Position numbers and translations under genes: made by a program | Notes under the pieces: model-generated | Seen by the model: the letters and a program-made list of their open reading frames with translations, nothing else | Database searches by the model: none | Told to the model about the DNA's origin: nothing | Shown: positions 10,683-49,920 of the stretch, in pieces | Layout of the letters: every line of letters begins with the position of its first letter | Numbering within the stretch: the stretch's first letter is position 1 | Origin: Marsupella aquatica | Taxonomy: Eukaryota; Plantae; Marchantiophyta | NCBI GenBank assembly: GCA_973895155.1 | Contig: OZ316891.1 | Coordinates: forward strand, 2,595,324-2,659,323 | Length of the DNA: 64,000 nucleotides | Direction: 5' to 3'

Positions 10683-13600
10683 TCATAAAACACCCTTTCG
10701 TCTCAAAAACGCATCTTGAGATGGCGCCCTCCCTAGAAAATCCTCCAAGATTTCAATCCCATCTTTGCAAGCTCCAGGCTGCAAAACCTACACATCACAC
10801 AGAACAAATGTCAAATTAAGATGCTACTTAAAAACTTAGAGCAATCAAACTTCTCAGTCAAAGCAGCAACTATGTTCACGACCAGCTTATAAGATGTGAT
10901 ATAAGTTGCATACTCGCAAGGCCCTGGAGGATGCAACGTACCTTGTCCCTGTACTCCCTGCCTGTAATTCTGCTAAGAATGTTCCATTTAAACTTTGTTG
11001 CAAACATGTCCGACGAGTACACCTGAGCCAAGTAAACGAAGCTTAATTAACGCATCCTCTTTTAACCGGTTGCCTGAAGAAAATGATCATGTAGTGCCGT
11101 GTAAACAAAACCTGTATGCCAAAAAAGGTACATCGCAAGAGTGACTCACCTCACTCCACAAGTAACCATAATATCCTCCATCATAACCCCCCACTAGGTG
11201 GCTAAACGATGCACCAAAATTCGTTCCATCATCCATTTGAATGCCCTCCATCACCTGCATCCAGTCAAAGTTCCTTCAGGTGGTCTCATATAGTAGAAGC
11301 CTCTGTTCAGAAACATACCCCTGGATCTCGTCCTTGCTCTAGTCTATATTGAAAGAGTATAGACTACACCAACGTATCCAGTTGAGAGCTATCCCATTTT
11401 GCGCTATATGAACTAACGACACCATGGAAATCAAAATGCATTCACAGTTCTTCTGGATCATTAGAAAACGTAGTGGTTCAGTAAACACATACCTCAGAAT
11501 GTAATTCTCTCAGGAGAGCAGTTGTGTCTACGTTATTGGTAGTATGAATTGCTTGGTCAAAAAGTCCTGTGGTGTAAAGAGTACACACAGGGCAAACACC
11601 AGTCAAGAGATATCCCACGAACCAGATCAATTTCATATACAGCTAGGATTTGCTTCTAAACATGTGGTAAGCAAAATTAAACTAATAATGCAGCCCATTT
11701 AGATAACCAACGTCCATTTTCAGCATCAGGCATTATCGTTCAGTCTAGCACATTTAAATGAAAAGTATCGTTTGAGACACCCCGGAGACATTGAACTGAC
11801 CACAATCGGCCGGAACTCGTATGACGACCATTACATACCAAGGAGCACTTGGCGCTTCGTGAGAATGGCTGAATAAGATCGTCTCTTTTTCGACAATGCT
11901 TGGCAATATTCACCAGGGATAGGTTGTTTAATATCCTGTAAAAATCCACGAACAACTCAATCAGATTGAACTTGCTTTTCAGAAGGACTTTTGTGTGTAC
12001 ACGGTCCTTATAATATAAGACAGGCAAGTCAAAACTCCCACTGAGTAAGATTGCTATGAGTTCGTTTTTGAATTCCCTTAAGAGTAAATCCCAGATTAAC
12101 ATTTAATAGGTGCACGATAGATTTATATCAACACAAACCTTGTAGTACCCACTCATCAATTTCAAGGCTGGGGCCTCAAAGCACCTGCAAAACCAGCGAG
12201 AGAAGCTCAAGACCTTACAGAGTAGAGGCTAAGAACTTGGGCCCACCACAGGAAATCACTCTAGACAACGCAAGTTGGAGAAACTGTTTCAAAATAACAT
12301 TTTTCAACCCTGATATGATCAACTTTCTCCAAGAATGGGATCGACTCAAGACATGAAATTGAAGATTATACCAGTTCTCCAGCATTTGACTAGGAGCCTC
12401 CACAAAGTCGTCTTCGCCTCGGAGACCACTGAACCTTACAAAGGATGACCGGCTGCAAATATGATGCATCTGCAAATTCAAATAATTCTACTGTGATGAA
12501 TATTCTCATTGATTTCTAAGTTAGCACGTAGGACTCTAGACGTACGTGTAAAGTGATACACCGGATAGAACAAGACTTCACTGAGTGCTACGTGTTTTAA
12601 AGGGGACTTTAAAAATGGGTCTCCTTACATAAAAAAATTCCATTAGCTAGTAGAAGACATGACAGACATGTGTAACAAAGCTCTTTGATGACGCGAAATT
12701 CAAACTCTCTCGAATAACAGAACCATTAAGCCCCAAGGACTCGACAAACACAGTGCTAATGGGTACAGGACAAACTGCGATGAATTTAGACGATATCAGT
12801 TTTCCCTCCGCCAAACTGAGAAATGACTTACCACATGCCCAAACTCATGAACGAAATTCACCACCTCCTCATGGGTTAACAATGATGGCCCCTTCGTTGG
12901 CTTTGTAAAGTTGGCAAGCATCGCAACTACTGGCAACTGCGCACTTTTTGTAGGATGTTGCCGCAGAGTTAGGTAATACATACATCAGCCAAGACTGGAG
13001 GTGTCAGGCACAAATAGAGTCCACTCAACATGACAAATACACTTACTTTTGGAATCAGAATTAAGCTTGCAAATTTCCTCATTTCTGAAGGCTATATATT
13101 CCAGTTTACGACAGCTACCAAATCAGACTATGCAGATCCTCATTAAAACTACTCAATTTGGAAGCCGTTATGTACCTGTCGTGTTCCGTTTCCTCGCACA
13201 CAGCCTGACTGAAGCGAGCAAACACACGTCTGGGAGTACTTTCCGTTTCTACAATGTACATTGAAGATATTTATTAAGTCACTTACATTGATTACGAGCA
13301 GCTGATTGACAACAGAGCCCTTCAAACTCTCAAATTCACCATTACAGTTCAACAAAGGACAGTTCAAGCATTGCAGACTGTCACCGAGGGTCATCATATG
13401 AGGCATTTCATTGGTAATAAAATGTGTTTCTATCTCAGACACCGTACCTGGGATAGAGATCAAGATAAAAGTAACCCATCAGCTCTCCAGTCTCCGCATC
13501 CAAAACAGCAAAGAGCTGCACTTCGGAATCCCAGACTTGTGGTCTTTCCAACCCTTTGAATCTAAGACCTGCCAAGATTATTCAATTCAACGATTGAGCA

Positions 13601-16600
13601 TGACATTGAAAAAAAGACCACTAATTGCATACTTGTGCAGAGCCCAGACAATTAAACTAGTCAAATGTTCAGCCGAGAGAACTTTAAGGATGTGTATCAC
13701 CCCTCTACAGCCTTACCTAATAGATCCTGGTAGATCTTGAAAAGACCTCGTCTGACTACCTCCATGGGGAAATACAGCTTCACTTGGGTGAAGTCCACTT
13801 TGAGTTCAGACTCTTCCGCTTTGCAGATATAGTATCTTAGGTCAGCCATTGTGAATTCGTCACTTCCCTCCTCGGCTTTCTGAGAAAATGTCCAGCAAAC
13901 GTTTTATGCTTGTCATTGAAGAAACAGCCAAAGAGATTACTTCCTGAACTTGGCGAAAAGAAAGAATAAAGTCAACTAATCACAATCAGCACCTTCATTG
14001 CCTTCAGATTTCTCAGCTCTATTCTGGCCAGTCCTGACATCCTTTCTGATATACTTTCCAAAAACTCTTTCACCTGCGAGAGCCATAAAGCCGGTCAGAT
14101 CCTGACTTGAAACTTAAAGAAATCCCAGCAACAAAGCTCAAATAAAATATATGATATCCTTGTTCGAATTATATCTTCCTTGAGTTACAGACATAGAATT
14201 TCCAAATACCACTTCCTTACACCTTTTCAGGAGTCTTGGCCATGCGGATTGAAGTCGCATACTCTGCATAATTTTTGTAGCCAAGCAACTGAGCCATTGA
14301 ATGTCTCATTGCTACCTGCGATGTCACGTGACACCGTTTAGTTTTAATAATCCATGTGAGTTATGGCGAATGTGCCGATAGGTTTGAATAAAAGGCCCCA
14401 GCATGCTCGATCAACAAGAATATCAAGAAAAGCAAGAATGGGGGTTAAACGTGGAAGTTGAGACCTGCTACCATCTAAACTGAGCACAGTAATAGGATAG
14501 AAACTTGACCACGTCCTACAGGAGGGGACTAATATCAGTTGGCAATATACATACCACTTTCTCAAGAATTGGGACATTCTCCTTCATACATCTCTTGTCA
14601 TAGGCAGTGCCCACTACCCGCCTCGTGGCTCCGACCTGTATATGGCGCAAACGTCAGCAAAAAGTGGTTTGTCCACTCATATCTTCCCATTCTTAGTGAG
14701 ACAGTCTTACGAGGTTGTGCCATAACTTGACGTCAAAGTCAAAAACAAACCTTGCATCTCTCCATAATGGGGGCATAGTGAGGATACTTCAGACTAACTT
14801 CCAGCTTCCCATCTTTTCCCTTCTTCAGGCCCTGTGAGAATGAAAACAGATAAAGTTGTACAGAAGTTAAATTGAATTCTCCTCAGAGTTAATCCATAAA
14901 GACAATTATATCAATGTTCACCCATTTGTTGATGCTTATTGAGGTAAGATGAAGCTACAACACACGCGTTCGACAGTCCAGGACCATCAAATTAAGGAAG
15001 ACAAAATATCTGCCTTGAAAATTAGCATTCCAACCTTAATGAAATCAGCTGGAAGTCCTTCCAGTTCAGCTTCCGTGAAATACAACCGGAGATTCTCCTC
15101 CTCTAAGTTTTGCTGAAACATTCTGGAATGCTCTTCAATACTTGAGTTCAAAAAGTTTATTTCGGCCCTTGCTTCCTTGCCAAGATTTATGCCCAGACGC
15201 TCAAAATCTCTGATCTACAAGCATCGTGATTGCCCCTGGTTAGAACGAAGGATTGGTTACCGAACTAGATTATTACTGAAGAGAATACCGAGAAGTAAGA
15301 CGAGAAAGATTGTACGGAAACTTGCAGATTCTAGAAAAGGTAAATCTTACCAATCGGTTCACATAGCGTTCAGCTTCGGGCCCTAATGGCTCCTGCTTCT
15401 CTGCAAACGCTTTTACTGCAAGATACACGTCTTCCCGCATTCTGTTCAAACAGTAAATATTTGTCAATCACTGCTCAAATTTAGCACACACTGCACGTCA
15501 AGAGGGCACGAATCAACTTTGTAAGCAGAGATACAAACAAGTAGTGATAGTTAGTTCTATGCCATAGCCTTGAAGAGTAACAGATACAGAATAAACATTT
15601 ACATACAACACAACGTTCGCTTATTTCAAAAAGTCAAAGGAAAGAGCAATTTGTCATGCTGGAGTTCCCCCTATACTTCAATAAGTCGGTTGAAATCAAC
15701 ATCTTCGTTGAACAGACAGTTGACTAGATCTACTCTGAGGATAACACTTCTCAAATTGAGCTTGTGATTACATTCAATTGTCTAGACAAAATAAATGTTT
15801 TCCCGAGGGAAAGCTCTCCATCATAAGTGGCTGATTTACTTTTTCACTTTACAATGTCTGGGGTCGCACTTCAATTCCGAAGAGCACATCTGCAGAGTGG
15901 AGGTACTCAAAATCAAGAAAAAGGTAGAGGACTTCCTACTCATCTGGCTTCATTTCGTATCTCAATTTTCGTGGTCAAATACAAATAGCGCACTCACACA
16001 CCGGCCCATTTGGCTTGACTCTCCTCAACCAGGTGCATGGTACTGCCAAGCCTTGATCATCAAGGATATCCTAATGCTCTCTTCAATGTGAGATTCCCAC
16101 GGAGTACCCATTCGATCTTTATGGCTCAGTCACTAGAGCCACCCGTTTATTAGCATCACGTCTGCCGGTAACAAATACACTATCTCATCCACTCGTTGCC
16201 AAAGGTAGCCCCAAGTTAGATCTCGACAACGAGAAGAGAGTTCAGGATTTCTGAGCAAGCAATCGGAGCAAACCTGCATCTCGCAATTTGGGTTTCAATC
16301 CTCTTTTCAGCCTCAGCACTGGCTTCACGCACATCTTTTGATGCGGCAACTAAACGAGGAAATACACACTCTTGAATCTTAGGGAATTCCTCTGCTTCTA
16401 GATTTGCCAGTGGAGCAATGACATTCTCATATGTTACCTGCGAAAAAATGAAGTTGTCTGTGAACCAAGTCATCAGATTATGACGCAGGATTTCAAAGAA
16501 TGCGCTGCCGGGCTGTCTCTTAAATCATCCAGGACTGCAGCAGCGATATGAGTCAAAGCAATTGATTGTAGACTGATTGTCATACCTCCTCCAAAGGCAC

Positions 16601-16948
16601 TGCTGAGACATTGTCACATACTTGCTTTGATAACGCAACCACGTCATCAGCTTGCTTAAGAATCTCTGAAGGACTCAAATCAAATCGAATCTGGATACCA
16701 GTGACATCTGCAACCAAAGGAGATGATTGAGATCCAAAGCCATTCATTTTGGTGCAACGAGGGAACAAATGAGGGCGTCACTGTGGAATTTACACCTAAA
16801 CTATGAGACACTACAGCTTACCGCTTCCAGCATCAGGGCTCCTTGGTTGGGGGTCACGACGGCCACTTAGAAAAAGCTGAGAAATCAAAACCACCCCAGC
16901 AGCAGCAGCTGCTGCTCCAGCCCATATCACAACTCCAGACTCCTTCAT
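10683..16948 (-). CDS. Thimet oligopeptidase-like M3 zinc metallopeptidase (multi-exon), with hydrophobic N-terminus
   Basis: ATG at 16948 ([25 protein letters not shown]). Spliced exons give [41 protein letters not shown] (HExxH, ~12836-12850), [34 protein letters not shown] and [18 protein letters not shown] (stop 10683-10685). The introns I checked are GT-AG. Confidence 0.95.
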
Positions 16949-17769
16949 CTCCGATCAGCCACTTCACATTCAAAGAAGTGAATGGCCTTGTAAACTTGAA
17001 TTGCCAGCTACTGCTGCTGCTCCCTACATATCATGTGCGTCCACAACACATGACCAAATCCAAGTACAGCTCGTAATTCATTCTTTGGTGCTCAATCCCG
17101 TTGCTCCCTAATTCACCAGGGATGATGTACCATCGGTATTTGCTCACACCTCCCTGCACGTTATACCCAGCAAAATGTTGTTCATCAAATATCTAAAACC
17201 CTTCCGAATTTACTGTCTCGCCCTGCAGTACTACCCCTTTGCCCTAAACTCTTGTCTATGAGACGTTGAACGTTTGGCTTGAATTGGGTTGGGTGGGAAA
17301 CACCGAATGCTGAAGGGAATGCCTACCTGGGAGGCGCTGTGGCAATCAGAGCCTGAAAACGAGATATCATTGTGGAGCGTGTCCGTAAAATGACAAACCA
17401 GATTCACTTAAGACGGGCAAACCTCAAGAAGGGCGGCTGCTTCGTAAAAGTACAGCGCCGGATGAGCAAAAGATTGGAGGGAGCCACTTCAGAATGATAT
17501 AGATCGGTCCCGCATTTCATCAGATTCACTTGAGATGAGCAAGCCTCAAAGAGGACGGCTGCTTCATAATTATACGTACTGTGCCTGATGAGCAAGATTT
17601 AAGAGAGCCACTTCAGAATAATGTGCTGTACCTCGGTCCCGCATTTGCTGTCCTGCTGCAGTTAACCATTGTTTCCCAAGCTCCCTCGATGGCTCATCGT
17701 GATTGCATAATGGGCACCAATTTGAAACAACCACGTTGGGAGAGAAAACTATCTCCTAGTGAGACTCAA

Positions 17770-18290
17770 ACTATAGCACTAATAAGCAGAGTTTTATGGG
17801 CTGAAACTTTTTAGACATAAGATTTTTATGGGGCTTGTATTTAGGTAGGGCGAGTCAAACTACTAATAAGCAGAGTTGTGTTATGGGGCTTGTATTTAGG
17901 TAGGGCGAGTCAAGCTATAGCACTAATAAGCAGAGTTTTATGGGCTGAAACTTTTTAGACATAGATTTTTATGGGGCTTGTATTTAGGTAGGGCAAGTGA
18001 AACTATAGCACTACTAAGCAGAGTTTTGTTACGGGGCTTGTATTTAGGTAGGGCAAGTGAAACTATAGCACTACTAAGCAGAGTTTTGTTACGGGGCTTG
18101 TATTTAGGTAAGGCGAGTCAAACTATAGCACTAATAAGCAGAGTTTTATGGGCTGAAAGTTTTTAGACATAAGATTTATATGGGCTTGTATTTAGGTAGC
18201 CCCTAACTCCTTGCTTCCTGGCCATAAAAACATTTTAGACATGAGATTTTATGGGGCTTGTATTTAGGTAGCCCCTAACTCAGACCATAA
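17770..18290. repeat. Composite tandem array (GGGGCTTGTATTTAGGTAGGGC...ACTATAGCACTAATAAGCAGAGTTTT modules, 60-bp core)
   Basis: Repeated modules visible directly; an exact 60-bp period is seen at 17983-18102. Confidence 0.9.
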
Positions 18291-18650
18291 AACATTTATG
18301 GACTTGGCCCTGCCTCAGTCATGGTGTTGTTTGGACACACCCTACTGGAGCCCAGTACATGTTATAGTGAGTTTAAGCTACTTGTAAGATGACGTCCTGG
18401 AGAGAATATTAAGGGTGATATGCCATGAGTTAGGCCACAATTAAGGGTGCCCATTTAGGGCCGTGCACTCTATTCATGGATGAAACACCAGGCGAGACAC
18501 GGAGCAGCACTGCCCAAGGTGAGCAAAAAAGAGTCACCCTGAGTTCTTTGCCAGCCTGTGTTTTATTTTCTGCACTGTTGTGTGTAGGCAGATGTAGAAT
18601 GTTGCCATGGGAAATGGAAGTGAACTAAAGTCACCATACCTTGATATAGC

Positions 18651-18858
18651 ATGTTCATTCTATTACATGCCTATTTTGACTTATCTAAAATTATTGAAAT
18701 GGGTAGACATTTTAACTTAACTAGTTTATAAAAAACAAGTATTGAAGAATAATTATGTTCATTCTATTACATGTCTATTTTGACTTATCTAAAATTATTG
18801 AAATGGGTAGACATTTTAACTTAACCAGTTTATAAAAAACAAGTATTGAAGAATAATT
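18651..18858. repeat. 104-bp tandem duplication
   Basis: ATGTTCATTCTATTACATG... starts at 18651 and again at 18755; the copies are near identical. Confidence 0.9.
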
Positions 18859-20192
18859 ATAAGAAAGTTAATGCACATATTTTTAAAAATTAGAAAAGTA
18901 TAATATTTGAAGACATGTGCATTAATTTCAAGGTATTAGTCAATGTACTTGTATAAATAGAGCAGCACTTTATGATTCAATTCAAAGAGAAGAGTGTGAA
19001 TTACTAAACTTTGTTTTCTAAAACTTTTGCCTCTATTTGGGGCTCTCTATTTAGGTGACACTTGTTCATCAATAAACCATGAATAATGTAAATTCTATAA
19101 CTAATCTTATTTATAAATCTGCAACTATAAACTAGAGTTGGGGCCTACGCTTCTGGAGTGAAACCTCTAGACCATAACTCCATGGTTCATCATGTGGAAT
19201 GATGAGAAAACTGATGTCTATGATGTATGTCATGTCAAACGATAATCATGGTTGCTTTTTGTTATGATTTCTATTTATATTAAAAACTGATCTCTATGGC
19301 CCTACCATATTATATGTACATAAGTGGGATGTAGGATAGACAAACTAGGGATGTGCATAGAAAAGAGTATTATGGTATGTTATGTCTAATTATTAAAATG
19401 ATGATATGCATGATAATTTTTTTATCATTTCATTAACCTTCAAAATATGTGAATAAAGAATATATTTTGATGACATTTTTATTGTCCTCCCCGCTATTCA
19501 CGTTCAAAGAACGGGTAGTCGAGGCTAGTGGCATATAAGGTGCACTCATCAATGAATAGTGTACTAGTTGCTTGGTTGAAGGGTCAAACCTTCTCTCATG
19601 CAGGTAAAAAAATATGCCCCTCAAAATGCTAAGAAAAATAGGAGGAGACCTACTACAAATGAAGGACATTAAAAAAGTTAAAGGGGCTGCCAAAAATGAC
19701 TAACTTCTAAATAATACATAGCTAAAGCATAGACTAGGCCAAATGAACATAAAAATACATTTCAATCAAACTGAATGAGACAAGATAGACAAAGAGTGTC
19801 CCGCCTTATAGCAGCCTCAAATTTTGGTATTACATTAAGGCATTTCTCATACAAATGTATTCTCGAGTATTTTTGGACCCCTCTAGTCAAAAAAACAATT
19901 CTTGTTCATCTTAATTTATTTTTCCCCTCTAAAAAACATTAAAGTTTGCATTCTACCCCAGAATAAGCAATGTTTGAAAAACATTTGAAGACAGCAACTG
20001 CAAAGTAATGATTATTTGTTGCACAAAACTTTCATGGCAATCATTAAAAAATAGCAATAGTGTCACATGTCAAATTTGTACACAATAACACACTTATGAA
20101 TCCACCCAGAAAAAATAATGTCCGAAAATAATTTGAAGATAATAACTACAAAATAATGACTGTTCATTGCAAAACTTTCATGGTAGTCCTTA

Positions 20193-20388
20193 AAAAATAG
20201 TAACACTGTCACATATCAAATTTGTGCACAATTACACACTTATGAATCCACAAAGTTAAAAATAGTAACACTATCACATATCAAATCTGTGCACAATTAC
20301 ACACTTATGAATCCACAAAGTTAAAAATAGTAACACTATCACATATCAAATTTGTGCACAATTACACACTTATGAATCCACAAAGTTA
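20193..20388. repeat. 65-bp tandem repeat, ~3 copies (older related copy at ~20046-20105)
   Basis: GCACAATTACACACTTATGAATCCACAAAGTT recurs at 20226, 20291 and 20356. Confidence 0.9.
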
Positions 20389-20862
20389 TCCACAAAGTTC
20401 TATAGTTTCATGAATCCAGAAAATTAAACAAAGTTCTTGTGAATGAGATCTATTTATATTTATCAAGGTAAAAAATCAAAGGACTCTGGTGGGGAATTGA
20501 ACCCCAAACTGTATGTATATACAATACTCCAAGCAGAGTAACCCCCCCTCTCTTCTTTCCTTCCCATTCACTTCACACACACACACAAATTATACATTGA
20601 ATATATTTATTTATCTACATTGAATATATTTATTTATTCTCTCACTCTCATCTATAAACTTACCCTATCATAAACATTAAATAAAAGAACATTAAGTAAA
20701 AGATGATAGATACTTCCTGTATTACTTACTTGACACTCAGTTTTAGCCATCTCCATTGCATCCACTTACAGAGGATCTTGGCTTAGTCTTGACCTTGACA
20801 AGGCTCTTTCTTAAGAGTGTTGTGCAGCCTTTAAATTTGATCCTTTATCTGCATCAATATAA

Positions 20863-21995
20863 TTACACTTGTGCAGGTTCTATCTCTTCATCATCAGACA
20901 ACACAATTATGTGTGCATTTGTCATCTTCTCCTTTACTTTCTTAGACCCTAAAGAATGCTCTACAGCCAATACATCAATAGTCTCCAAATAATTATAGTT
21001 CGGAAATGGCTGCTTGTTTGCCAATGATACAAATTTTCCCAATGAATCATCAAATGTCAATCCCTTCTCAAGGACCCTGGTTTCTACAAACATATCATCA
21101 AAACGAACAGATTTTGGTTTCACCTTTGACTTCTTGAGAGAACTCTTTGTTGGAGATCCTTCGATCACTATGCTAAATTTATTTACACCATCATCAACTG
21201 ACTCAGAATAATACCTACCAAAACCACCAGTCCAAGCTTTTCTAACAAAAACTTCTTCAACATCAGCTCTGCATACATTGATAGGATCAATAATACATTT
21301 CCAAAGACAAATCATCCTCTTACAATCCATTCTTTGTCCACTTAAGGAATAATTCAGCTTGCAGCAGGCATGAAGATTCCAGATTTCACCATCTCTGTTA
21401 ATGTTGAAATGAATGTTGCATGCAAAGGTCTCTATGACGTGTATTTGTGTCATACATAAATTCTATCAATTACATTCTTGTTTGTGAGAATTACTCTCGA
21501 CTTCAAATCTGCTATGCCAAAAATAGAATGTAACTATTTTCCTACAATCACTTCTTCATCAATAATGTTAAACAATGTTTGCTCAAAATGGGTAGCTCCT
21601 AAATCTTTCAAACAATAATCAATCATTCCTTTCCACGTATGTAATTGTCTATTAGTCAAACATTTACACATAACTTTACCAATAGGATTCATATTGTTCA
21701 CCCCATGCCAACCCATATATTTTCTTACAAGAAAACCAAAGGACCTGGCGGATTTTGTCTTTGCTCTCACAACCATCTGAAAATGGAGATGATTCTCCAA
21801 TTCACCCCTCTCAAGCCCAATCACACCTGCCACACAATGATCAAGCATGAGACTATGGAGCTTGTGAATCTCATCTTTATAAACATCAGAACCCAAGTAT
21901 CCCACAGTGATACTCAATTCAAAAACACTATCAACCAATGAAGCTTCTTCCTTATCCTGCATAGGAAGTCTTGCTTTTCGCTTTAAAGAAGCCAT
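20863..21995 (-). pseudogene. Replitron-type HUH endonuclease (Rep, single catalytic Tyr), disrupted
   Basis: Motif I SITVG, motif II ERG..ENHLHFQ (21777-21791) and motif III YCLKD (21603-21617). The frame continues through stops at 21534, 21450, 21432 and 21354 (K*LHSIFGIADLKSRVILTNKNVIDRIYV*HKYTS*RPLHATFISTLTEMVKSGIFMPAAS*IIP). A 1-bp frameshift then leads into SGQRMDCKRMICLWKCIIDP...VEEVF. No helicase motifs are visible. Confidence 0.85.
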
Positions 21996-22459
21996 GTTAA
22001 TTTTGCACAAAGTTCTCTAGACTCTCAAAACTACTTTTGTGAATCTATATTACAACTACAAGAATTCAGTTCAAAAAGATAAGTTGGATAAGTGTCAACT
22101 ATTTTTACTATAAAAAAAGTTTTTTCTTTTGACTCTACCACTGTTTCGTCTTGCCCTATATTCTCAGTTGCATGCAAAATCCAACAAGCAATTTCTCTTC
22201 ACCTAACCTGCACACCAGAAAACAAAATTCAATATCCCTAACATAATGTGGTGACTCTTTCTTTATGTTTTCAAGAATTACTTGGACTAAATCCTCGGGT
22301 GTGTAAGGAATGATATTGTTGTCTACTCCTAGTTGTGATTTGCTGGACATTAGTACAAGCAAAATAGAGTAATCTTCCTAGAAACACAAGGCACAAGAGA
22401 CAAAGAGCAAACACAAGGGACACAGGGCAAACACAGGTTAACCAATGTTAGAGACCTTG

Positions 22460-23070
22460 AACTGTTAGTTTCAAGGGTCGTTAGTGAATAATATGAGTTC
22501 ATAGGATGTTAATAATCTTGACAGACTCAAATTGTTAGTACGAGTCTTGACAGACTTGAAGACGGTTAGTAAGTATCCTGGATAGACTCAAACTGTTAGT
22601 AATCTTGACAAACTCAAAGACGATTAATAAGTATCTTGGATAGACTCAAACTGTTAGTAATCTTGACAAACTCAAAGACTGTTAGTAAGTAGTCTGGATA
22701 GACTCAAATTGTTAGTAACCTTGGCAGACTCAATGTTAGTAAATGACCTTGACATATTCAATGTTAGTACATAATCCTAACTAATTCACATTAGAAACAC
22801 CCAAGGGCTGTTAGTAAATAATCTTCATCCACTCCAGACTCCTAGTAAAAATCCTTGACAGATTCAATGTTAATAAATAATCTTGGCAAACTCAAACTGT
22901 TAGTAGATAATCTTGACTATCTGACTATTAGAGACATGAGGACTGTTAGTGAAACAGAGAACCCAAACACTATTAGAAAAAAGACTCAAATACAATGACC
23001 GAGAACCAAGACTTGTAAAATGCAACACAATGTTAGAGACCACCTCCATTGACCCAAGTATCTGTTAGAA
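22460..23070. repeat. Degenerate ~28-31-bp tandem array (ACTGTTAGTAATCTTGACAGACTCAA)
   Basis: Roughly twenty TGTTAG(T)-containing units seen directly, upstream of the HUH ORF. Confidence 0.85.
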
Positions 23071-23498
23071 CTATCTGACAAGGGACTGAAGAGACCTGGA
23101 CCAAACACTATTACACACTGGAGCGAGAACAAGATCAAGAGTTGAGAGAGCTCAAGGGAAGGCAAAGACAATGCTTCTCAAAGACTGAAGAACTGAATGG
23201 ACAGATGCAATGGAGTTTGCTTAAGTAGCAGTGATCAGGTTTTGTCTCCTCCCAGATTAAAGATTGAGGTTTTTGTTGTCACTCAACTAAACCTTTAACC
23301 TAGAGACGTACCAGAAAAATAATTGATCACCTAAGTGAAACGTTAAGTGAAAGGTATTGTATATTTTCAAATCTCCAAGATACATGGAAGCTGTCATCAA
23401 ACAACACACATTCCAGCTTATGTACAGGAGCTTGTGCCATATAGCAGCCTCAAAAAAATCCTATAACTTGAGTATTCACATTCATAGCTGATTGTGTA

Positions 23499-23743
23499 CT
23501 CGGGGGGGTCACTTCCATGGAAGTGGCATATCATATGCGATGAAGTATAAGGCTATTTAAATGGTTTTGGCAGAAGACTTATTAAGTCTTCTATGGAAAT
23601 ATAGGGTTGTTTAATTGCAAAATGCATACATGTCATCACATAATTGGTGTCGTACAACTTTCTAGAAAGTGACTTAGGGGGGTCATAAATGACCCAAACC
23701 ATCGCACGTGATATATGACCCTTCATATAGTGACCCCCCCGAG
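23499..23743. mobile_element. MITE family A, copy 2 (CTCGGGGG termini, 8-bp TSD)
   Basis: Perfect TIR CTCGGGGGGGTCACT...AGTGACCCCCCCGAG. 8-bp TSD ATTGTGTA (23491-23498 and 23744-23751). Confidence 0.9.
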
Positions 23744-26700
23744 ATTGTGTAAAGTTGTAAGAGTGAGGTCACGGTTAGTATTGGCCCTTAAGACTTTATA
23801 CAGGTCTGTCGTATTAAGGGTAACTCATCCTGCCAACTCATTGGTGGAAGACTACAGTAGTAAATGTATTAAGCAACTCATGTTTTAAATTATCTTGCAA
23901 CTTCAAATACATACCAAGCTTTTACCAATTGCAATGAGCTAATTCTGGGTTCAATGAGTTAGAGCCCGTAGAGTCTTTCAGTTGAAGGATTGGTGTCAGC
24001 GCCTTCAATATAAACTAGTCATTGACCTCATTTACAAGTAGCTTAATCTCCCTGGTTGCAACCAAAGAATATCTTTTTGATTAGGAAGAGGGACAGTGAT
24101 TGGGGGTTCAAGATATCTTGGCAAGTCAGAAGTAAATACTAACAGATATGTTAAGAATACCCATGTCATGTACACCAAGCAAACTGAGAAATTCCAAGTA
24201 CAACTGATCTTAGCAAGGAGGTCTAGAAACCTATTCTTAGTTCTTGTAGGAATCTAACTAAGTGATTGCAACTAAGGCCTAGAGTGAAGCCTCTAGACCA
24301 CTACTTTGGGAAGATTTGGTACATGATAATCAATCAATTTTGAAACTTGGACAAACATTTAAACTCAATTGTTGTTGTCTATTGGGTCCTGCCATTCAAT
24401 GTCGCCTGTTGCACACAAAACAAAGAGTGTATGTCTTCACACTTTTGAATGCTACCTACAAACAAGAGAGGCACAAGAAGATATGAGCTATTATTGTCCC
24501 ATTGCTGCTTCCAACTCTCATTAGATTCAATGTACCCATCTTGTGAGGAAGAGTCATTCTCCTTGTTCCTCTGGTCACCAACACTATCCCTTGTACAACT
24601 CCTTGGCCTTCTCCAATGTTTTTCAGAATTGGTTCTAGAGATTTCGAGATTTTTTGCAACTTGAAAGCATCTGATAAATTTAGAAACATCATTTCAAACT
24701 TTGCCCACTTTGATTCAAAGGAGTTGGCAATTTGCACCTTGGTCCCTCATGGCTTGTTGTAGAGTCTCCAATTTGCTTCCAAATGTTGTCCTTCATTTGG
24801 CCCAAACCAACGCAAAGATCTTTAGATATTTTCAAGTAGCTATAGCACAAGTGCTTCAATTCAGGACCACTGAGAATTTTTCAGGTGCTGCCATGTGTAG
24901 AAAGCCTCGTCAAGTGCATGGTGCTTGTCTTGCATGGGCAAAGCTTTGGCACATTCAAAATGGGACCACAAGCTTTGCCACAGTACTGTAGAATTGTATA
25001 GTGTGACCTCAAAGCTCGAGTACAAACCTCAAAACACACCTATCTTAAAGCGCATATTTCTGTTTCCTACAAATTGTTGGTAGCAGAGGCACGGGAGGGG
25101 ATTCCAAATCACACCAGATGCAAACATGTGACAACCTGCCCGATGTTGATTAGTTTTGCCAGGGCTCAAGCATGAAAAACTGGTTTTGTATGGGTTTGGA
25201 TGTGATTTCCAAATGCAAACATGTGGTGTGTGTAGTGTTTTGTCACCTGGCTAAATCATGTCGGTTCCACATTGCTATGGATGCATGTCGATAATTTTAT
25301 ATCAAAATGTGACAATATATAGTGTACTATATCACTCCATCAAACACTATAATATTGAATCAAACCATTTTTCTTCCTTTGTCCAATTATGAAATGCAAT
25401 CTAGAAGGCATAAGTCACCACATTTCTCTTGCACTCTATATTTTGAGTGCCATTGGATTCAAGAAAAGTGGTTTACAACAGGTAGAGGGATGAGAATGTG
25501 AGGATGGACTCCAATGGGATGGGGATGTTTGGATGGTTGTCAATCATGTGTACGGTGGAACGAGGAGGGAGTGCAAGTGCTTGATAAATGACAAAGGGGA
25601 TCAAGGAGGAGGGCATGTGTGCTGGCAATGGGGTACTAAGCGGAGTGAACAAAAAGGTGTGATGTACACGTTGGAGTACAAAGACATGTCTACACAAAAA
25701 ATGGTACAAAGTGAAGGGAGGGGAGAGCAAAAATACACAGTGGATACTAAGGCGTGTCCTATACAAAGCAAAGGAAGGGGTCAAGAAATGGAACGTGAAA
25801 GATCCTAGGAGTGAGAGTGAGGTCACAATTATTTTCTTTTCATGATTTCTAGTTTGTCTTTGAAGGAAATTGAAATGATAAATTTAATTCCTTAAGATGA
25901 GGAGGAGACTAATATATCCCAAGGCCACATATAAACTTTCTAAATATGTTTTTTTGGCTATGAATGATTTTTCTCGTTTGTAGTTATCTTTAATAGAGGG
26001 GCGCGGGGAGCGAGGGGGGGGCGCTGCTATCCTTTTCGGCTTTATTTTTGGGAGAGTAGTTTTTTGGGGATTGGTTGTTGTGTTGTGAAGAAAGGGGGGG
26101 AGAGGTGCAGGGGAGGGATTATGTATCTTGCCCTGCATCTTGGCTTAAATTTCTTCCTTTTGATTGCCCCCAATCTTGCATATATTTTTCTTAGCTTTTC
26201 CAAGGTTTTTCCTTCTCTGTGGTCTTGTCTTTTCTCAACATCTTTTTTGCATAAAATCTTTTCCACTCGACATCCTTTTTGCTTGACAGAATTTTTGTTT
26301 GACATCTTCCCACCCAATAACTTTTTTGCTCTCTATCTTTTCCGAGATGGATATATTTCCTTTTGGCATCTCATCTTACAATTTTGTGCATCCCACAGGC
26401 ATTGGGCTATCCAACACTAATAGACAATCCCTTAAAATGGGGGATGATCCCTTTACAAACAGGAAAAAAGAAGAGAGAAAATCCTAACTGTTCACAAACT
26501 ATGAATTTTGGGCACTATCTCACCTACCTGCCTAGACTACCCACAATTACATTGACTTCAAATGATGGACTTCCTTTCTGTCACTAGGAGTTTTTTAACC
26601 CTAAACTCAAAAAGCATTATGGTCAGTAATGTGTAGGATAACCCATCTCCAAGAGGGGTAATGGGATGTAATCCCAGTGGGAGTTGAGCCCCAGAGGGTT

Positions 26701-37269: not shown

Positions 37270-38440
37270 CTGATCAGATGTGGGCAAGCCAAATGGATCA
37301 GTGTGGTGGTCTATTTGAGCATCAACTTCCATGAACCATTTGAGTCGAACCAATCCTAAGTGATGAGTGTATTACAAAGCATTATCCATCACCGATCAAA
37401 GATGGTTCACTACCTATCCAAGTCCCTTTGGGGGGTCACTATATAGAGAAATATATATCATGTGCAATAGTTTGGGTTTTTCATGATTCTCTTTATGCTA
37501 GGCATTTACTCTTGGGTTTAGAGTTACGATTGTACTTATAGTTAGGCTAACCTTAGTCCCAACTTTTGTAAGTTAGTTGAACTATACACTATATACACAA
37601 GTGGGTATTCGTCTGTTTGGAGAAACTCAGGTTCATTGTTATGGAACCAGTTGAAAGATAGGAAAAACTTATGTTGCAGAGATTCAATATAACCAATGCA
37701 CATAGACTAAAGTAAACTTCTTGTGTGTTTCCATTAACATAACCTCACCTCGGGTGAATCACATATCTCTTTGTTTCGACTACTTGTTCGTTAGATATCC
37801 ATGGGCGTGCCGTTGCAAATGTAGTCTTTACTCAACACTTGAATCATTCTACAACGCCGATCATAAAATGACACATGTATTTTTCAATTAGAAAATCACA
37901 TATTTCCATTGACATCCTACTAAAGTTTTTATTAATTGGTTAAAATAATATTATATTTTGTTGCACTTGATGTGTCCTTTTTGTGGAAATGAATCTCCCA
38001 AGCCAAGTCCATGAATTTGTTGAGCCAAACCAATCAATTGGTGGTCTATGGAAACCTCAACTTTTATGAACTGTTTGATTCAAATTGATTGAACATGGTG
38101 GTCTATCCAAGTCCATGAACCAGTTTGAGCCAAACTGATGAAACTCGGGGTGGTCTATTCAAGCATCAACTTCGATGATTGACCTGTTTGAGTCAAACCA
38201 ATCAAACAGACTGATCTATCTGATCAAACGTGAGGGTCTATTCAAACTCCTATGAACCACTACTTCAAACCGAGCCAAACCCATCAATCTTGGTGGTCTA
38301 TCCAAGTCCACGAATTGTTTGAGCCAAACCGCGCAATTGGTGGTCTACTCAAGCCTCAACTTGTATGACCCGATTGAGTCAAACCGATCAAACGTACTGG
38401 TCTATCCAAGCGTCAAGTTCCATGAACCGTTCCATCCGAG
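37270..38440. repeat. Degenerate ~55-60-bp tandem array (GGTGGTCTATCCAAGTCCATGAACC.TTTGAGCCAAACC), interrupted
   Basis: GGTCTAT/GAGCCAAAC units repeat densely at 38000-38440, with scattered copies from ~37270. Confidence 0.8.
37426..37490 (-). mobile_element. Terminal fragment of MITE family A, opposite orientation
   Basis: GGGGGGTCACTATATAG...TATATCATGTGCAATAGTTTGGGT resembles the reverse complement of the 3' end of 23499-23743. Confidence 0.6.
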
Positions 38441-44466: not shown

Positions 44467-47400
44467 CTACTTGTGATGCAATTGCAAAACCTGCAATACG
44501 TCACGGTGTCTAGAGAAACTCTCCAAAGGAATCACTTTGGTAAATGCGTCAGCCGGGTTGAGTTTACCATCAATCTTGACTAGCTCAAACAAATTATCAA
44601 ACACAGCCTGCCTGATAAAATGGTACCTAACGTCAATGTGCTTCACTCTGCTGTCCATCACCTGGTTCACAGCAAGGTGGAGCGCACTTTGGCTATCACA
44701 ATGGAGCTTCACATTCCCCTGTGGCAATCCCATTTCAGTGATAAGTCTATCCAACCAAATCGCTTCCTTTGCTGCTTCCGCAGCTGCAACATACTCCGCT
44801 TCTGTAGTAGACTGAGCAATACACTTCTGCAAAGTAGACCTCCAACTTATGCATCCATCGCCAAGTGTGAACACGTATCCTGTTGTTGATCTCCTTCGGT
44901 CCAAATCTTGTCCATAGTCAGAATCAACATAGCCAATCAATGATTTAGCATTCTTTGCATTCGCATCAAATAAAAGACCATGATCCACGGTACCCTTCAA
45001 GTACCTGATAATCCACTTCACTGCTTCCCAGTGTACCTTCCCTGGATTTGACATGTACCTGCTCACCTTGCCCATAGCCATGGCAAGATCAGGTCTAGTG
45101 CAAGTCATCAAATACATGAGACTCCCCACTGCCTTGTCATACGGAACCTTTGACATCAACCCCTTCTCTGTGTCATCCGTAGGACAGAACGCTGATGATA
45201 ACTTGAAGTGTGGAGCCAACGGGGTACTTACTGGCTTGCTATTCCCCACGTTGAACCTTGCAATTACCTTCCTCGCATAACTGCTCTACGTCAACCATAG
45301 CTTGCCAGCCTCCAAGTCCCTAGTGATCTCCATACCCAAAATCCTCTTAGCTGGCCCTAAGTCCTTCATCTTAAACTCTGCACTAAGCAGTGCCTTGAGC
45401 TTAACAATCTCAGACCTATCCTTGGCTGCAATTAGCATATCATCCACATAAAGTACTAAAACAATGAACCCAAAGACAACATTCTTTACCGGTTTCAAAT
45501 ACACACAAGGGTCAAATACACTTCTGTGAAAACCTTGTGACCGAATCCAATCGTCAAACCGCTTATTCCACTGTCTTGGTGACTGCTTCAACCCATACAA
45601 GGATTTCAGCAATCTGCAAACCAATTCCTCCTGTCCTCTCTTCACAAAACCTAGCGGTTGTCTCATGAAGATCACCTCTTCCAATGTGCCATAGAGGAAA
45701 GCTATGACAACATCCATCTGATCTAGCAGTAGACCAAACATTACAACAAGTACACACAATAGTCGTATTGTAGAGTACTTAGCAACTGGTGAGAAGACCT
45801 CATTGTAATCCACACCTTTCTCTTGTGTGAATCCCTTTGCTACCAATCTAGCCTTGTAGACCTTCGATCCACCTCCTATGGAATTATCCTTCAGCTTGTA
45901 AATCCACTTGCTATCCACCACTTGCTGACCCTTAGGCAGCTTAACAAGCTCCCAAGTTTTGTTGTCCTTTAGTGACTGCATCTCCGTTTGCATTGCTGCA
46001 GTCCACTTCTGCTTCTCCTTTGAAGCACTTGCCTCATGAAATGAAGAAGGTTCCCCTTCTTCCAAAATTAACGCATCACCCTCATCATCAGCTGTAAAAT
46101 CATCCTCTTGCAGTTGAGATGAATCAACCCACTGTCCATACCTTGGTGGAGCGCGTACAGTGCGACCAGATGTTCTTCTAGCCGATGACTCTGGTTGATC
46201 TGCGTGTGCTGGTACAATTTTAAGCTCAACAGCATCCACTTGCTGCTCACCAGCATCAACAAACTCCTCTGGTTCCTTTGGCACAGGAACCAGCTTCATA
46301 ATTGGAGCAACTTCTTCTCTCCGGTCATGCACCTCATAACCAATCTCCCCCTCAACGAGATCCGGGATAGGAGATTTTCCTTTGTCAGTACGGGAGACCT
46401 GAGTATTCTCCCCCTCCTTCAATAATCTGGATTCATTGAAGGAAACATCCCTACTAACAACGAGCTTACAGGCAATAGGATCCCATAGCCTATAGACTTT
46501 CACACCACTCTTGTACCCAAGAAAAACACATTTCTTGGAGGTAGGATCCAACTTGGTCCTATTCTGCTTCGGTGTGAGAGCATATGCATCACTTCCAAAA
46601 ACTACCAAGCCATGATAGTCTGCTTGCCGCTTATAGCGCATCTCAAACGGCGTTTTGAAATTGATAGCACTAGAAGGAGAAAGATTTACCAAATAAGCTG
46701 CGGTATTGACAGCTTCTGCCCAAAATTCTTGTGGTAAACCTGATTGGCTCAACATACTCCGTGACCGCTCCAACAGTGTCCGATTGAGCCTCTCAGCGAC
46801 ACCATTCTGCTGCGGAGTATAAACTGTGGTGAGATGACGAGTTATCCCCTGTTCTGAACAGTACTCTTCAAATTCCATTGAAGTGTACTCCCCGCCGTTG
46901 TCTGACCTCAGACTCTTCACCCTTGTATCCAAACACTTGATCGTGTTTCCAGTCTGATTCTCCACCTGGGCCTTCCACTTCTTAAAAATGGACAAGACAT
47001 CAGACTTATGCGTCATGAAATAAATCCACACAAATCTTGAGTAATCATCAATAAATGATACATAGTACAACTTTCCAGAGTGTGAGAGAGTCGGGGATGG
47101 ACCCCACACGTCACTATGTATGTACTCAATAACCGCTTTGGAACAATGAGTTCCAACACCAAAAGCACGACGATGCTGCTTTCCAAGAATGCAATACTCA
47201 CAAAACTCTAATTTACAAGATTGCAAATCAGAAATGAGTCCATTCTTCCGTAAGATAGCCAAACCCTTCTCACTCATGTGGCCTAGCCGTGAATGCCACA
47301 GTTGAGTCATCTCCTCGTGAGACTTGGTTACATTGGCCTCTCCACATTTTGTATTGCCCTGTAACACATACAAATTCTTTTGTCTACTCCCCTTCAAAAT

Positions 47401-48780
47401 CACTGTCTCTCCCGACCTGACTTGAAGTTCACCATCAATAACGCTCCATTGATGACCATTTGAATCCAACACACCGAGTGAAATCAGATTCATACGCATG
47501 CCAGGTACATACCTGACTCCGGACACTGTGCGCACAGCGCCATCAAACATTTGAATCTTCACAGACCCAATTCCCTCAATTTGACAGGAGTGATCATTTC
47601 CCATCAAAACTGAACCGTTTGAAACAGAGTAAGAACTGAAAAACTCACGAATGTAACAAATATGAAAAGAGCAAGCACAATCAAGAATCCACACATCATC
47701 TGCTCTCCTAGATGACGTGCACAGGGCATACCCCCGGCTTCATAAAACATACTCATCATTGAGTAAATCAGCTTCTCCATCAGCCCTAGCCACATTTGTC
47801 GATGAAGTTTCCGCTGCCTTTCCCTTACAGTCTCGCTTGAAGTGTCCAACTTGGTTGCACTTCCAACATGTCACCTGCCTCCTCTGAGGGGATTTACCCT
47901 TGGACTTAGATATGGATTTAGATCTAAACTGGGTTCTACGGTCCCCAGTTGGTCGCTGCATACTCCTCCCACGGTTAACATTGAGGGCAGCACCAGATGA
48001 TGAAGGCTGTGACGTGATGTGCATCTTCTGCTAAAGATCATCACTAAGCAGAGAACTTACCACGTCATTGTATGAAATGGTATCCCTATCACGATGCAAC
48101 AACACTCGTGATAGGGACTGGTAAGATGGAGGCAATGAACTAAGAAGCTGCAGAGCCTTCGTCTCATCATTCAAAGTCTCCCCAAGGTTTTCCAAGTCAA
48201 CGACCATGTCGTTGAAAGCATCCACATGGTCTTGCAACTTCGTACCAGATTTCTTCATCCTGAAACTCATCAGTTTGTAGGAAGTGTAGAGCCGGTTCGA
48301 CAACTCCTTGCGGTGATACTTGCTCTGCAATTCCGCAAACAAGGACATGCAATCCTTATGTGCACCCAACTGCTTGATGATGGGAGGCATGAGATAGAGT
48401 GTAACACACCATACTCCTTGCTCCTGCATGCGGTCCCATTGTTTCTCATCAACATCGTCTTCACGAGGGCTCAACAGTTGTCCCATCCCTAACGCATAAA
48501 ACACTCCCTTCACCTGCTTCTCCCATAGCAAGTAGTCAGAGCGCCCATCATACTTTGTCACTTCATACTTGGGTCCCCCAAGCTTGAAAGTCCCCATCTT
48601 CTTATTTGGCACTACCGTGAGCTCCGGTAGTAGTACTGCTTCCTCCACCACACGCCGCACCGGTGATGGTATCGGTGTCACGTGCTCTTCCTCCTGCTCC
48701 TCTCTCTGCCCCTGAAACCTCCACGGTGATCCTCGTGCTTCAAGTTTCACGTCTTCGAAAAACTCCTCCGAATCACTCAT
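44467..48780 (-). pseudogene. Copia gag-pol, single reading frame interrupted by three stops
   Basis: ORFs 48031-48780, 47740-48024, 45286-47694 and 44467-45249 are all in the same frame. Motifs: CCHC knuckle CWKCNQVGHFKRDC; protease WILDCACSFH; GAG-pre-integrase WHSRLGH; integrase HSDVWGP/RSDNGGEY/QQNGVAER; RT YKARLVAKGF/LYVDDMLIA; RNase H DSDY..STTEAEY..CDSQSA. Confidence 0.95.
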
Positions 48781-49920
48781 ATGAGAAAATCACAAAAAAT
48801 GTTATTTTTCACAACTTCTCAAAAAACTCGAAACTCAACACCGTCGTGTAGCCCACAAAGCTAGGAGTCCAATACTGAAAACCGAAATCAAAATCGAAAT
48901 TTGACGGAAAAGTTATTCAAATTTCGGTCGAGGTGGGTAAAACCTTGGGAAACTCCCCCGTTTTGACCACCTCAGGGAATAACCGAAATACCAAGTACAA
49001 CCCGTTGTCGGAATTGCGATATGATTGGTGCGCTGCGTTGCCAACTTCAATGGCTACGACCTCGCCGAAAAATAACCAAAAAAGTTACCATTCGGCGGAT
49101 GAAATCTTTGTCGGACGGTCAAAAAATAACTCTCTAGTTTTTTGGAATATTCTATGACCCTTGTACAGGCCCTGTGGGAATTTTGGAAGAACAATCGAGG
49201 GGTTGACATGTGTCCTTGAACCCCCAAAACCCCCTACCACCCTTCGTCGTCGAAATCTGGTCGCGCGCGCAGAAAATACACACGGCAGAATGTACCCCTC
49301 GACACCAAACGCAAGATATCTCACTCGGGTTTTGACGAAATCAAGATCCGATTTCAGATTTGGAAACTAGACTCCGAGGCGATGAAGATCGATATAAGAA
49401 GCACCCAAAACGAGGAAAGAACGAGGGAGAAAAAAATTGGTAAAGATGACAGATTTCTCTCAATTGCCATAGCCAATTTCGAATCAGTTTTTCAAAGAGA
49501 AAAAAATGGTACCTTGTCAACAACGAATGTTGATCAATTGCACTTGGTGCCGTCACCAAGTCCAACAAGGTAATTGATTTTGCTTAGCCTTCCTCTTTGC
49601 ATCAAAGAGCCAATCCCAGACTCAAAAACAATCGTCTTGCCTCAATCTCTCCGTTGAGTCAAAACACTTGATGCTTCTCCCTCCGAGTCGATTGCCAACT
49701 TTCTTCACAAAATCCAGAACGACAAAAACTTAGATCTCTTTGCACCACGAGCTCCGTTCAACGATTTCTTCACACCGTTAGAAAGCTCTTGCCCTGATCT
49801 ATCCGTTGAGCCCATAAACTCCAAGTTCCATGCGATGGAACTCTGGAAAATCCACCAATACTCAACGTTGGAAAATCCGTCATGAAATCCCGTCACAAAC
49901 ACACGTCACCTCCCAAGCAT

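What the first reader, a model, noticed from the sequence alone, without database searches (positions are those of the whole stretch)
20863..21995. Helicase-less Y1 HUH (Rep) endonuclease in plant nuclear DNA: a Replitron-type rolling-circle transposon
Seen: rolling-circle motifs I (FELSITVG), II (GLERGELENHLHFQ) and III (MIDYCLKD). A downstream helical region is hidden in the ORF track by four in-frame stops and a 1-bp deletion (RVILTNKN...EMVKSGIFMPAASWIIP.SGQRMD..R...LW.CIIDP). There is no SF1 or SF3 helicase, so it is neither a Helitron RepHel nor a typical CRESS-virus Rep. Known: Replitrons are a recently described group of eukaryotic transposons with a single-Tyr Rep related to CRESS/pCRESS Reps, abundant in non-seed plants and often missed by annotation. 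Inference: a decayed autonomous copy, probably of an uncatalogued family. All four stops are one C>T/G>A change from Gln or Trp codons, consistent with methylation-driven decay.
Basis: partly seen in the sequence, partly recalled or inferred. Interest (0 to 1): 0.85.

Follow-up and report, generated by a model that had tools for sequence, protein, structure and literature searches.

The report
Dead Replitron transposon in a liverwort
This is a broken copy of a Replitron, a known kind of plant and algal jumping gene with a single-strand DNA-cutting enzyme and no helicase, in what is likely a leafy liverwort; it is an ordinary member of its group, apart from repeated end motifs suggesting it sits end to end with a shorter relative.

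Summary
Confirmed. The minus-strand ORF at 21995-21537 matches Pfam Replitron_HUH (E 4.7e-15). Read with X through four stops and a 1-bp frameshift at 21342-21345, it continues into the Replitron second domain. All 41 homologues scanned are Replitrons, none with a helicase. The fold is CRESS-Rep-like. A host LARP1 exon is 72% identical to Calypogeia fissa, so the host is likely a leafy liverwort, a group where Craig 2023 reported Replitrons from transcriptomes only.

Public contigs show a multicopy family. They carry the motif III Gly that this copy lost, and C>T/G>A decay dominates. Only two of the four stops sit at Trp columns, none at Gln.

Added here: an 18-of-19-bp direct repeat (19803-19821, 23436-23454) likely bounds a 3.65-kb element. 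Its lower copy is also the contig-defined end of a higher-copy gene-less element (18644-19821), whose far end repeats the 7-bp core. This head-to-tail layout hints at insertion into the family's own ends, but the upper boundary lacks multicopy support. The scan noted a similar layout in another genome (e1-7304131). New member of a known kind; modest interest.

The parts
21537..21995 (-). Open 5' part of the transposase gene (153 codons): Y1 Rep HUH domain
   Evidence: PF21859 E 4.7e-15; AF2 mean pLDDT 93.6; best Foldseek PDB match circovirus Rep 7kii, E 3.5e-4
21903..21914 (-). Motif I (S-I-T-V; Replitron signature SUTU)
   Evidence: S28 in 95 of 99 and T30 in 97 of 104 homologues covering the column
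21810..21812 (-). [quoted passage not shown]
   Evidence: E in 119 of 126 homologues; role proposed by Craig 2023
21777..21785 (-). Motif II as HUQ (H71-F72-Q73)
   Evidence: H in 122 of 128, Q in 124 of 128 homologues
21606..21620 (-). Motif III D-Y-C-L-K; single catalytic Tyr127 (21615-21617). Asp126 is a private change from Gly
   Evidence: G in 126 of 142 homologues. At 21619 all listed depth of sibling contigs (6, 16 and 18 contigs in X1, X2, X3) reads the Gly base
21238..21470 (-). Replitron second domain (putative oligomerisation domain), broken by three stops and the frameshift
   Evidence: Local profile from 23 homologue stretches that hit PF21860: X-joined read 64.2 bits over profile positions 2-80 of 81; each half 23-26 bits. 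Pfam PF21860 itself did not report the separate pieces
21342..21536 (-). Stretch holding all five breaks: stops at 21534-36, 21450-52, 21432-34 and 21354-56, frameshift at 21342-21345
20863..21237 (-). Open, poorly conserved C-terminal tail; original end uncertain (sibling contigs show indels at 20848 and 20860)
   Evidence: table 4
22208..22281 (-). Possible 74-bp 5'-UTR intron (GT...TGCAG); unverified, no RNA run listed
   Evidence: sequence only
23436..23454 (-). Upper copy of the 19-bp end motif; likely left (5') end of the autonomous element
   Evidence: 18 of 19 identical to 19803-19821; next best site in the window has 5 mismatches. Depth here is about single-copy
19803..19821 (-). Junction motif: end of the higher-copy gene-less element and likely right end of the autonomous element
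   Evidence: Loose ends at 19818 (12 and 12 contigs) and 19821 (7 and 8) in X2 and X3 with unlike flanks; depth falls about tenfold or more beyond it
19807..23454 (-). Proposed whole autonomous Replitron, 3648 bp, with variable internal tandem repeats at 19957-20391 and 22508-22953
   Evidence: Bounding repeats; sibling contigs join 19981 to 20443 and 20444 to 20864, bridge 22221-22484 and join 22469-22799 and 22767-22939; repeats
18644..19821 (.). Higher-copy gene-less element, likely a non-autonomous partner (about 750 bp without the Helitron-like insert)
   Evidence: Loose ends at 18644 (13, 35 and 33 contigs) and at 19818-21; 7-bp core TATAGCA at 18645 and 19807; weak hairpin at the low end, z -2.7, best of 7 folds
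18645..18651 (.). Third copy of the 7-bp core, one base inside the contig-defined end at 18644
   Evidence: chance about 8e-4 for one of 7 offsets

Best explanation
This is a pseudogenised copy of an autonomous Replitron transposon, with a single-tyrosine HUH nuclease domain, the Replitron second domain and no detected helicase, in what is likely a leafy liverwort; when intact it would likely have moved by copy-and-paste through a single-stranded DNA intermediate. Shown: the motifs, both domains, the Rep fold, five breaks, a diverged multicopy family, and a bias to C>T/G>A changes. Inferred from HUH biochemistry and Craig 2023: His71, Gln73 and Glu62 hold the metal; Tyr127 nicks and rejoins one strand; the second domain would let a multimer supply a second Tyr; host replication or a host helicase would supply single-stranded DNA. 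Inferred from this locus: the enzyme would have nicked at or next to the repeated end core, the element likely spans 23454 to 19807, and the adjoining gene-less element (19821-18644) would have been mobilised in trans. This copy cannot make a full transposase.
For: PF21859 at twice its cut-off. 418 relatives at E<=1e-3 among 1.84 billion representatives. I scanned 41 of the 152 retrieved, chosen mostly for length (136-695 aa): 41 of 41 hit PF21859, 25 also hit PF21860, none hit any other family. Domain 2 spans the frameshift. The AF2 model has pLDDT 93.6; best PDB match is a circovirus Rep domain at 14% identity, the link Craig reports. The family is multicopy in three runs of two studies, most contigs under 95% alike. 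The majority-difference spectrum is 72:30, 96:31 and 97:24 for C>T/G>A against the reverse. CpG observed/expected is 0.19 in the element and 0.59 in the window. Host: LARP1 exon 72% to Calypogeia fissa, 45% to Marchantia paleacea, 40% to Riccia sorocarpa; moss and fern hits far weaker. By eye the closest published proteins are from Bazzania, Plagiochila and Barbilophozia. The 3648-bp length fits the 2-4 kb range.
Against: The ends are not proven. Depth at 23388-23492 is about single-copy (49, 50, 97, against roughly 60-80, 34 and 73 for unique flank contigs). No loose ends at 23454 or before 19807 appear among the rows shown (529 rows not shown). Pfam PF21860 did not report either broken piece. 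No hairpin stands out at the proposed right end of the autonomous element (z +0.7). The longer part of the end motif lies on the gene's 5' side, whereas Craig saw 5-11 bp extensions at the right end. All five breaks cluster in 65 of 377 codons (p about 0.004, post hoc), which even decay explains poorly. The mechanism has not been shown experimentally for any Replitron in what I read.
Confidence: 0.88

Rival explanations
1. Same protein, different boundaries: the upper 19-bp motif is the displaced tip of the gene-less element or an unrelated fragment, the Replitron is shorter (for example about 19820-22300 or -23390), and the gene-less element belongs to another transposon class.
For: Single-copy depth at 23388-23492 and a depth dip at 22332-22595. 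The gene-less element has imperfect subterminal inverted repeats (34 nt at 71-74%; p 0.01), which other non-autonomous DNA transposons also have (recalled).
Against: Sibling contigs bridge 22221-22484 and join across the 22.4-22.9 kb repeats. The 7-bp core recurs one base inside the far end of the gene-less element. No terminal inverted repeat or target duplication is visible at its tips.
Confidence: 0.3
2. The Rep domain was kept under selection for a time after the stop at codon 154 (a truncated, domesticated or regulatory 153-aa protein), which would explain why the breaks cluster just behind it.
For: All five breaks lie in codons 154-218; 7 stop-prone codons remain intact in codons 1-153 and none in 154-217. 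Mismatches at conserved columns are 4 of 59 in Rep and 7 of 37 downstream.
Against: That difference is not significant (p 0.10; 1 of 25 against 2 of 14, p 0.29). The tail behind the frameshift is also open for 159 codons with 5 stop-prone codons intact, which selection on a 153-aa product would not explain. The near-invariant motif III Gly is lost privately.
Confidence: 0.05
3. An endogenised CRESS-virus or plasmid Rep fragment that lost its helicase.
For: Best structural matches are CRESS Reps.
Against: Those matches are at 7-22% identity, while Replitron-family proteins reach about 60%. Domain 2 is Replitron-type. No helicase or capsid family was found in the flanks. A viral-contig scan found no relative (0 of 3 candidates; close relatives only).
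Confidence: 0.02
4. The Rep is a remnant of a Helitron RepHel.
For: A canonical non-autonomous Helitron-like insert lies 1.3 kb from the gene's 3' end (19105-19528).
Against: Single Tyr, HUQ motif, Replitron domains and no helicase. The insert is separate, with empty-site contigs.
Confidence: 0.01

Closest known systems
Replitrons (Craig 2023, PNAS, PMC10288648; Pfam PF21859 and PF21860)
   Same: Y1 Rep with SUTU, HUQ and (G)YxxK motifs, upstream Glu, adjacent second domain, no helicase, multicopy, non-seed-plant host, likely short direct repeats at the ends, proposed length within 2-4 kb.
   Different: This copy is dead and has Asp for the motif III Gly. Its bounding repeat is longer (18 of 19 bp, 7-bp core) than the 6-bp repeat of Replitron-1. 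The extension beyond the core lies on the gene's 5' side. It appears to share a junction with a gene-less neighbour; my term search of the paper's main text found no tandem or nested elements.
Leafy-liverwort Replitron proteins in Craig's Dataset S5 (1KP codes WZYK Bazzania trilobata, NWQC Plagiochila asplenioides, OFTV Barbilophozia barbata)
   Same: By eye (not computed) they share clade-specific stretches around motifs I-III and in domain 2, including His where most have Tyr at position 156 and Lys before the GM of motif III.
   Different: Those are transcript-derived proteins with no DNA ends. Dataset S1 lists no liverwort genomic family.
CRESS-DNA virus and pMV158-type Reps (circovirus 7kii, smacovirus 8fr5, RepB 3dky)
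   Same: Rep HUH fold, one catalytic Tyr, HUQ as in circoviruses.
   Different: 14-17% identity for these three; no SF3 helicase and no capsid; Replitron-type second domain.
Helitrons (RepHel)
   Same: Eukaryotic HUH transposons that increase in copy number.
   Different: Helitrons have a Y2 Rep fused to an SF1B helicase and insert between A and T or T and T; neither the second Tyr nor the helicase is here.

Membership tests
Replitron | Rep HUH domain of the Replitron type (PF21859) | tested here: met
   56.5 bits against cut-off 28.5
Replitron | Motif I SUTU, conserved Glu, motif II HUQ | tested here: met
   S28-I-T30-V, E62, H71-F-Q73
Replitron | Motif III with one Tyr, signature GYxxK | tested here: met
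   Y127 and K130 present. This copy has D126, but 6, 16 and 18 sibling contigs carry the Gly base at 21619
Replitron | Second conserved domain of about 90 aa after Rep (PF21860) | tested here: met
   Local profile 64.2 bits for the X-joined read, 26 bits for the post-frameshift piece alone; Pfam's own model did not report the separate pieces
Replitron | No fused helicase | tested here: met
   0 of 41 homologues and 0 of 18 flank frames hit a helicase family; moderate sensitivity for spliced exons
Replitron | Multicopy, dispersed in the genome | tested here: met
   Up to 16-20 contigs per site in runs X2 and X3, most under 95% alike. No genome was held, so there is no copy number
Replitron | Short direct repeats at or near both termini | tested here: inconclusive
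   18 of 19 repeat flanks the gene, and the lower copy is a contig-defined end of the neighbour; the upper end lacks multicopy depth
Replitron | Right-end hairpin (seen in Replitron-1) | tested here: inconclusive
   z -2.7 at the low end of the gene-less element (best of 7 folds); z +0.7 at the proposed right end of the autonomous element
Replitron | Clusters with Replitron transposases in CLANS or a tree, apart from other HUH groups | not tested
All 41 scanned hits are PF21859
Replitron | Copy-and-paste transposition | not testable with these tools
   Needs de novo insertions or an assay
Helitron | Y2 Rep fused to an SF1B helicase | tested here: not met
CRESS-DNA virus (endogenous) | Rep fused to an SF3 helicase, with a capsid gene | tested here: not met

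The most novel reading that the evidence does not exclude
Liverwort Replitrons use a short end core (TATAGCA on the window's plus strand) both as nick site and as preferred target, so new copies insert into the ends of older family members and build head-to-tail chains that share one motif per junction. This locus would be the first liverwort Replitron with defined ends plus its non-autonomous partner, and would give a concrete nick and target sequence for testing the unknown Replitron mechanism in land plants.
Probability: 0.35. Interest if true: 0.55.

Novelty: new member of a known kind. Interest (0 to 1): 0.3.

Why it matters
As a gene it matters little: Replitrons have Pfam models and were already reported from leafy-liverwort transcriptomes. 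It adds a genomic liverwort family, which Craig's Dataset S1 lacks, and which repeat annotation could miss. The more useful lead is the three-motif layout. Craig lists the transposition mechanism, the role of the terminal repeats and target choice as open. A candidate end and target sequence shared by an autonomous element and a higher-copy gene-less neighbour makes those questions testable.

Tried and rejected
No whole genome is held, so no genome-wide copy alignment. A word-based search for longer homologues of the 153-aa piece found none among 275 candidates; the full HMMER search then found 418. The viral-contig scan gave 0 relatives among 3 candidates. The metagenome scan gave 1 locus from 48 candidates (L001, 35% identity); its repeats were uninformative. 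The PDB sequence search gave nothing under E 1. VIA-align jobs did not run because the machine was busy. No RNA holder was listed among six runs; this says nothing on expression. The two read-laying runs did not list the stop codons or the frameshift among the rows shown, so sibling states at the stops are unknown. Self-BLAST found no second copy of the gene or of the gene-less element in the window. Considered and dropped: a seed-plant host, which would have been new (rejected); a solo LTR at 22300-23320 (sibling contigs bridge its supposed start; not excluded); a TGGTATTAC word next to the junction as a virus-like origin (resemblance recalled, untested, likely chance). No complex prediction and no tree were run. 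The paper's SI Appendix gave only 531 characters of text and Fig. 5C could not be seen, so the published land-plant termini were compared only through six short passages of Dataset S4.

Full report
1. Observation. The minus strand holds an ORF from ATG at 21995 to a TAG at 21534-36 (153 codons). It carries motif I (S28-I-T30), E62, motif II as H71-F-Q73 and motif III as D126-Y127-C-L-K130. It scores 56.5 bits on Pfam PF21859 Replitron_HUH (cut-off 28.5). The same frame continues through stops at codons 154, 182, 188 and 214. A fifth stop at 21342-44 coincides with the frameshift, after which another frame is open for 160 codons to 20866.

2. The frameshift and second domain are real. A full HMMER search with the upstream piece (stops as X) found 418 proteins at E<=1e-3; 150 were listed, giving 152 with two more. 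The downstream piece, not used as a query, hits 15 of these 152 at E<=0.01, at the residues that follow the upstream match. Pfam PF21860 did not report either broken piece. A profile built from the 23 homologue stretches that hit PF21860 over positions reaching the model's end scored the X-joined read at 64.2 bits (positions 2-80 of 81) and the downstream piece alone at 26 bits. The best unrelated window ORF scored 6 bits.

3. Family. I scanned 41 of the 152 homologues, chosen mostly for length. All 41 hit PF21859, 25 also PF21860, and none any other family. Six read-through frames of the flanks (15000-20865, 22000-24500) gave no Pfam hit; this control also missed short exons of the neighbouring peptidase gene. 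The AF2 model of the 153-aa piece (88-row alignment) has mean pLDDT 93.6. Foldseek ranks a circovirus Rep domain first in the PDB (E 3.5e-4, 14% identity), and the best named viral matches are CRESS Reps. Craig reports the same distant link. Named homologues come from Coccomyxa, Adiantum and Diphasiastrum; the closest ones are unnamed.

4. Host. Craig found Replitrons in liverworts, mosses, lycophytes and ferns, and none in hornworts or seed plants, so the host decides novelty. A poorly conserved 275-aa LARP1 exon (58497-59321) is 72% identical over its full length to Calypogeia fissa (E 1.6e-112), 45% to Marchantia paleacea and 40% to Riccia sorocarpa; moss and fern hits are far weaker. The host is therefore likely a leafy liverwort. 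By eye, the closest proteins in Craig's Dataset S5 are from Bazzania, Plagiochila and Barbilophozia; this comparison was not computed. His Dataset S1 has no liverwort genomic family.

5. Decay. Six public runs hold part of the stretch. In three runs of two studies, hundreds of contigs lie on 19560-23492, most under 95% alike. The best holder may be the window's own source. At 21619 all listed depth reads the Gly base (6, 16 and 18 contigs), so D126 is a private G>A change in the GYxxK motif. Where most contigs differ from the window, C>T/G>A changes in the window outnumber the reverse 72:30, 96:31 and 97:24 (p<=4e-5). These counts cover the whole laid stretch, the runs are not independent, and direction is inferred from the majority. 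CpG observed/expected is 0.19 in the element against 0.59 in the window. This fits methylation-driven decay without proving it. One oddity is unexplained: all five breaks fall in 65 of 377 codons (p about 0.004, post hoc), while conserved-column loss differs only weakly between regions (p 0.10 and 0.29).

6. Ends. A flank-against-flank scan found a 15-bp direct repeat at 19807 and 23440; 3 of 200 shuffles reached that length. It extends to 18 of 19 bases (19803-19821, 23436-23454), and the next best site in the window has 5 mismatches. The lower copy coincides with a contig end seen earlier. The second laying, run after I noted the idea, showed loose ends at 19818 and 19821 with unlike flanks and a steep fall in depth. 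With that anchor, the expected number of such matches in 4.7 kb is 9e-7; 2 of 1500 random window anchors had a like partner 1-6 kb away. The anchor was chosen after the repeat was seen. The higher-copy element ending there starts at 18644 (13, 35 and 33 loose ends), and the 7-bp core TATAGCA recurs at 18645 (p about 8e-4), beside a weak hairpin. Sibling contigs link the gene to 19981 on one side, and bridge or join the stretch from 22221 to 22939 on the other. The simplest reading is three motifs bounding two elements head to tail: a 3648-bp autonomous Replitron and a gene-less partner. Against it: depth at 23388-23492 is about single-copy; no loose ends at 23454 or before 19807 are among the rows shown; the proposed right end has no hairpin; the motif's extension is on the gene's 5' side, unlike Craig's two examples; and the partner has imperfect subterminal inverted repeats. 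An earlier, unchecked note of this scan (e1-7304131) describes a similar three-motif, head-to-tail layout in another genome. It raised my odds for the self-targeting reading but is not independent proof.

7. Mechanism. Shown: domains, motifs, fold, breaks, multicopy family. Inferred from HUH enzymes and Craig 2023: metal binding by H71, Q73 and E62; nicking and joining of one strand by Y127; a multimer through domain 2; single-stranded DNA supplied by the host; copy-and-paste, possibly by a rolling circle. Inferred from this locus: nicking at or beside the repeated core, mobilisation of the gene-less element in trans, and possibly insertion into existing ends (35%). This copy is dead.

8. Literature seen. 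Craig 2023 (PMC10288648): parts 1-5 of 7 of the main text, passages, Datasets S1 and S3 whole, S5 all four parts with long rows cut, S4 part 2 of 9 and six passages; the SI PDF held almost no text and figures were not visible. Searches: 'replitron' 11 papers, 9 listed; with 'liverwort' 3; leafy liverwort + genome assembly + transposable elements + HUH, 0. The other papers were seen only as listings. I found no paper on a genomic liverwort Replitron in these searches; subscription journals and Dfam were not searched.

9. Verdict. A new, dead member of a known transposon group in an expected host. Interest 0.3, resting mostly on the candidate ends.

Noticed in passing
window 19105-19528: High-copy non-autonomous Helitron-like element inserted between A and T (TC...CTAG, imperfect subterminal hairpin) inside the gene-less element; contigs skipping the 424 bp show empty sites. 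A related end lies at 53914-53995.
   Followed up: partly
window 23499-23743: High-copy MITE with terminal inverted repeats starting CTCGGGGGG and an 8-bp target duplication ATTGTGTA, hAT-like by that length (label recalled); related pieces at 2365-2433 and 37430-37486.
   Followed up: partly
window 21342-21536: All five breaks of the transposase gene cluster in 65 of 377 codons; unexplained.
   Followed up: partly
window 17734-18300: Array of about 60-bp degenerate repeats between the peptidase gene and the gene-less element; five units contain the same 7-mer TATAGCA as the end core. May be chance.
   Followed up: no
window about 11090-16780, minus strand: Multi-exon peptidase M3 host gene (four exons hit PF01432); its 5' exons are read by eye. 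The transposon cluster lies 2-7 kb upstream.
   Followed up: partly
window 44470-48789, minus strand: Copia-type LTR retrotransposon with long open gag and pol frames.
   Followed up: no
window about 55500-62400, plus strand: LARP1 host gene with short introns; one exon used to place the host near Calypogeia.
   Followed up: partly
run X5 (organism C) on window 21200-21900: A third coded organism label holds diverged contigs on the Rep gene and a few identical low-depth pieces; the latter may be contamination.
   Followed up: no
L001:1191-1670: A metagenome contig encodes a Replitron-like protein at 35% identity; ends not identifiable.
   Followed up: partly
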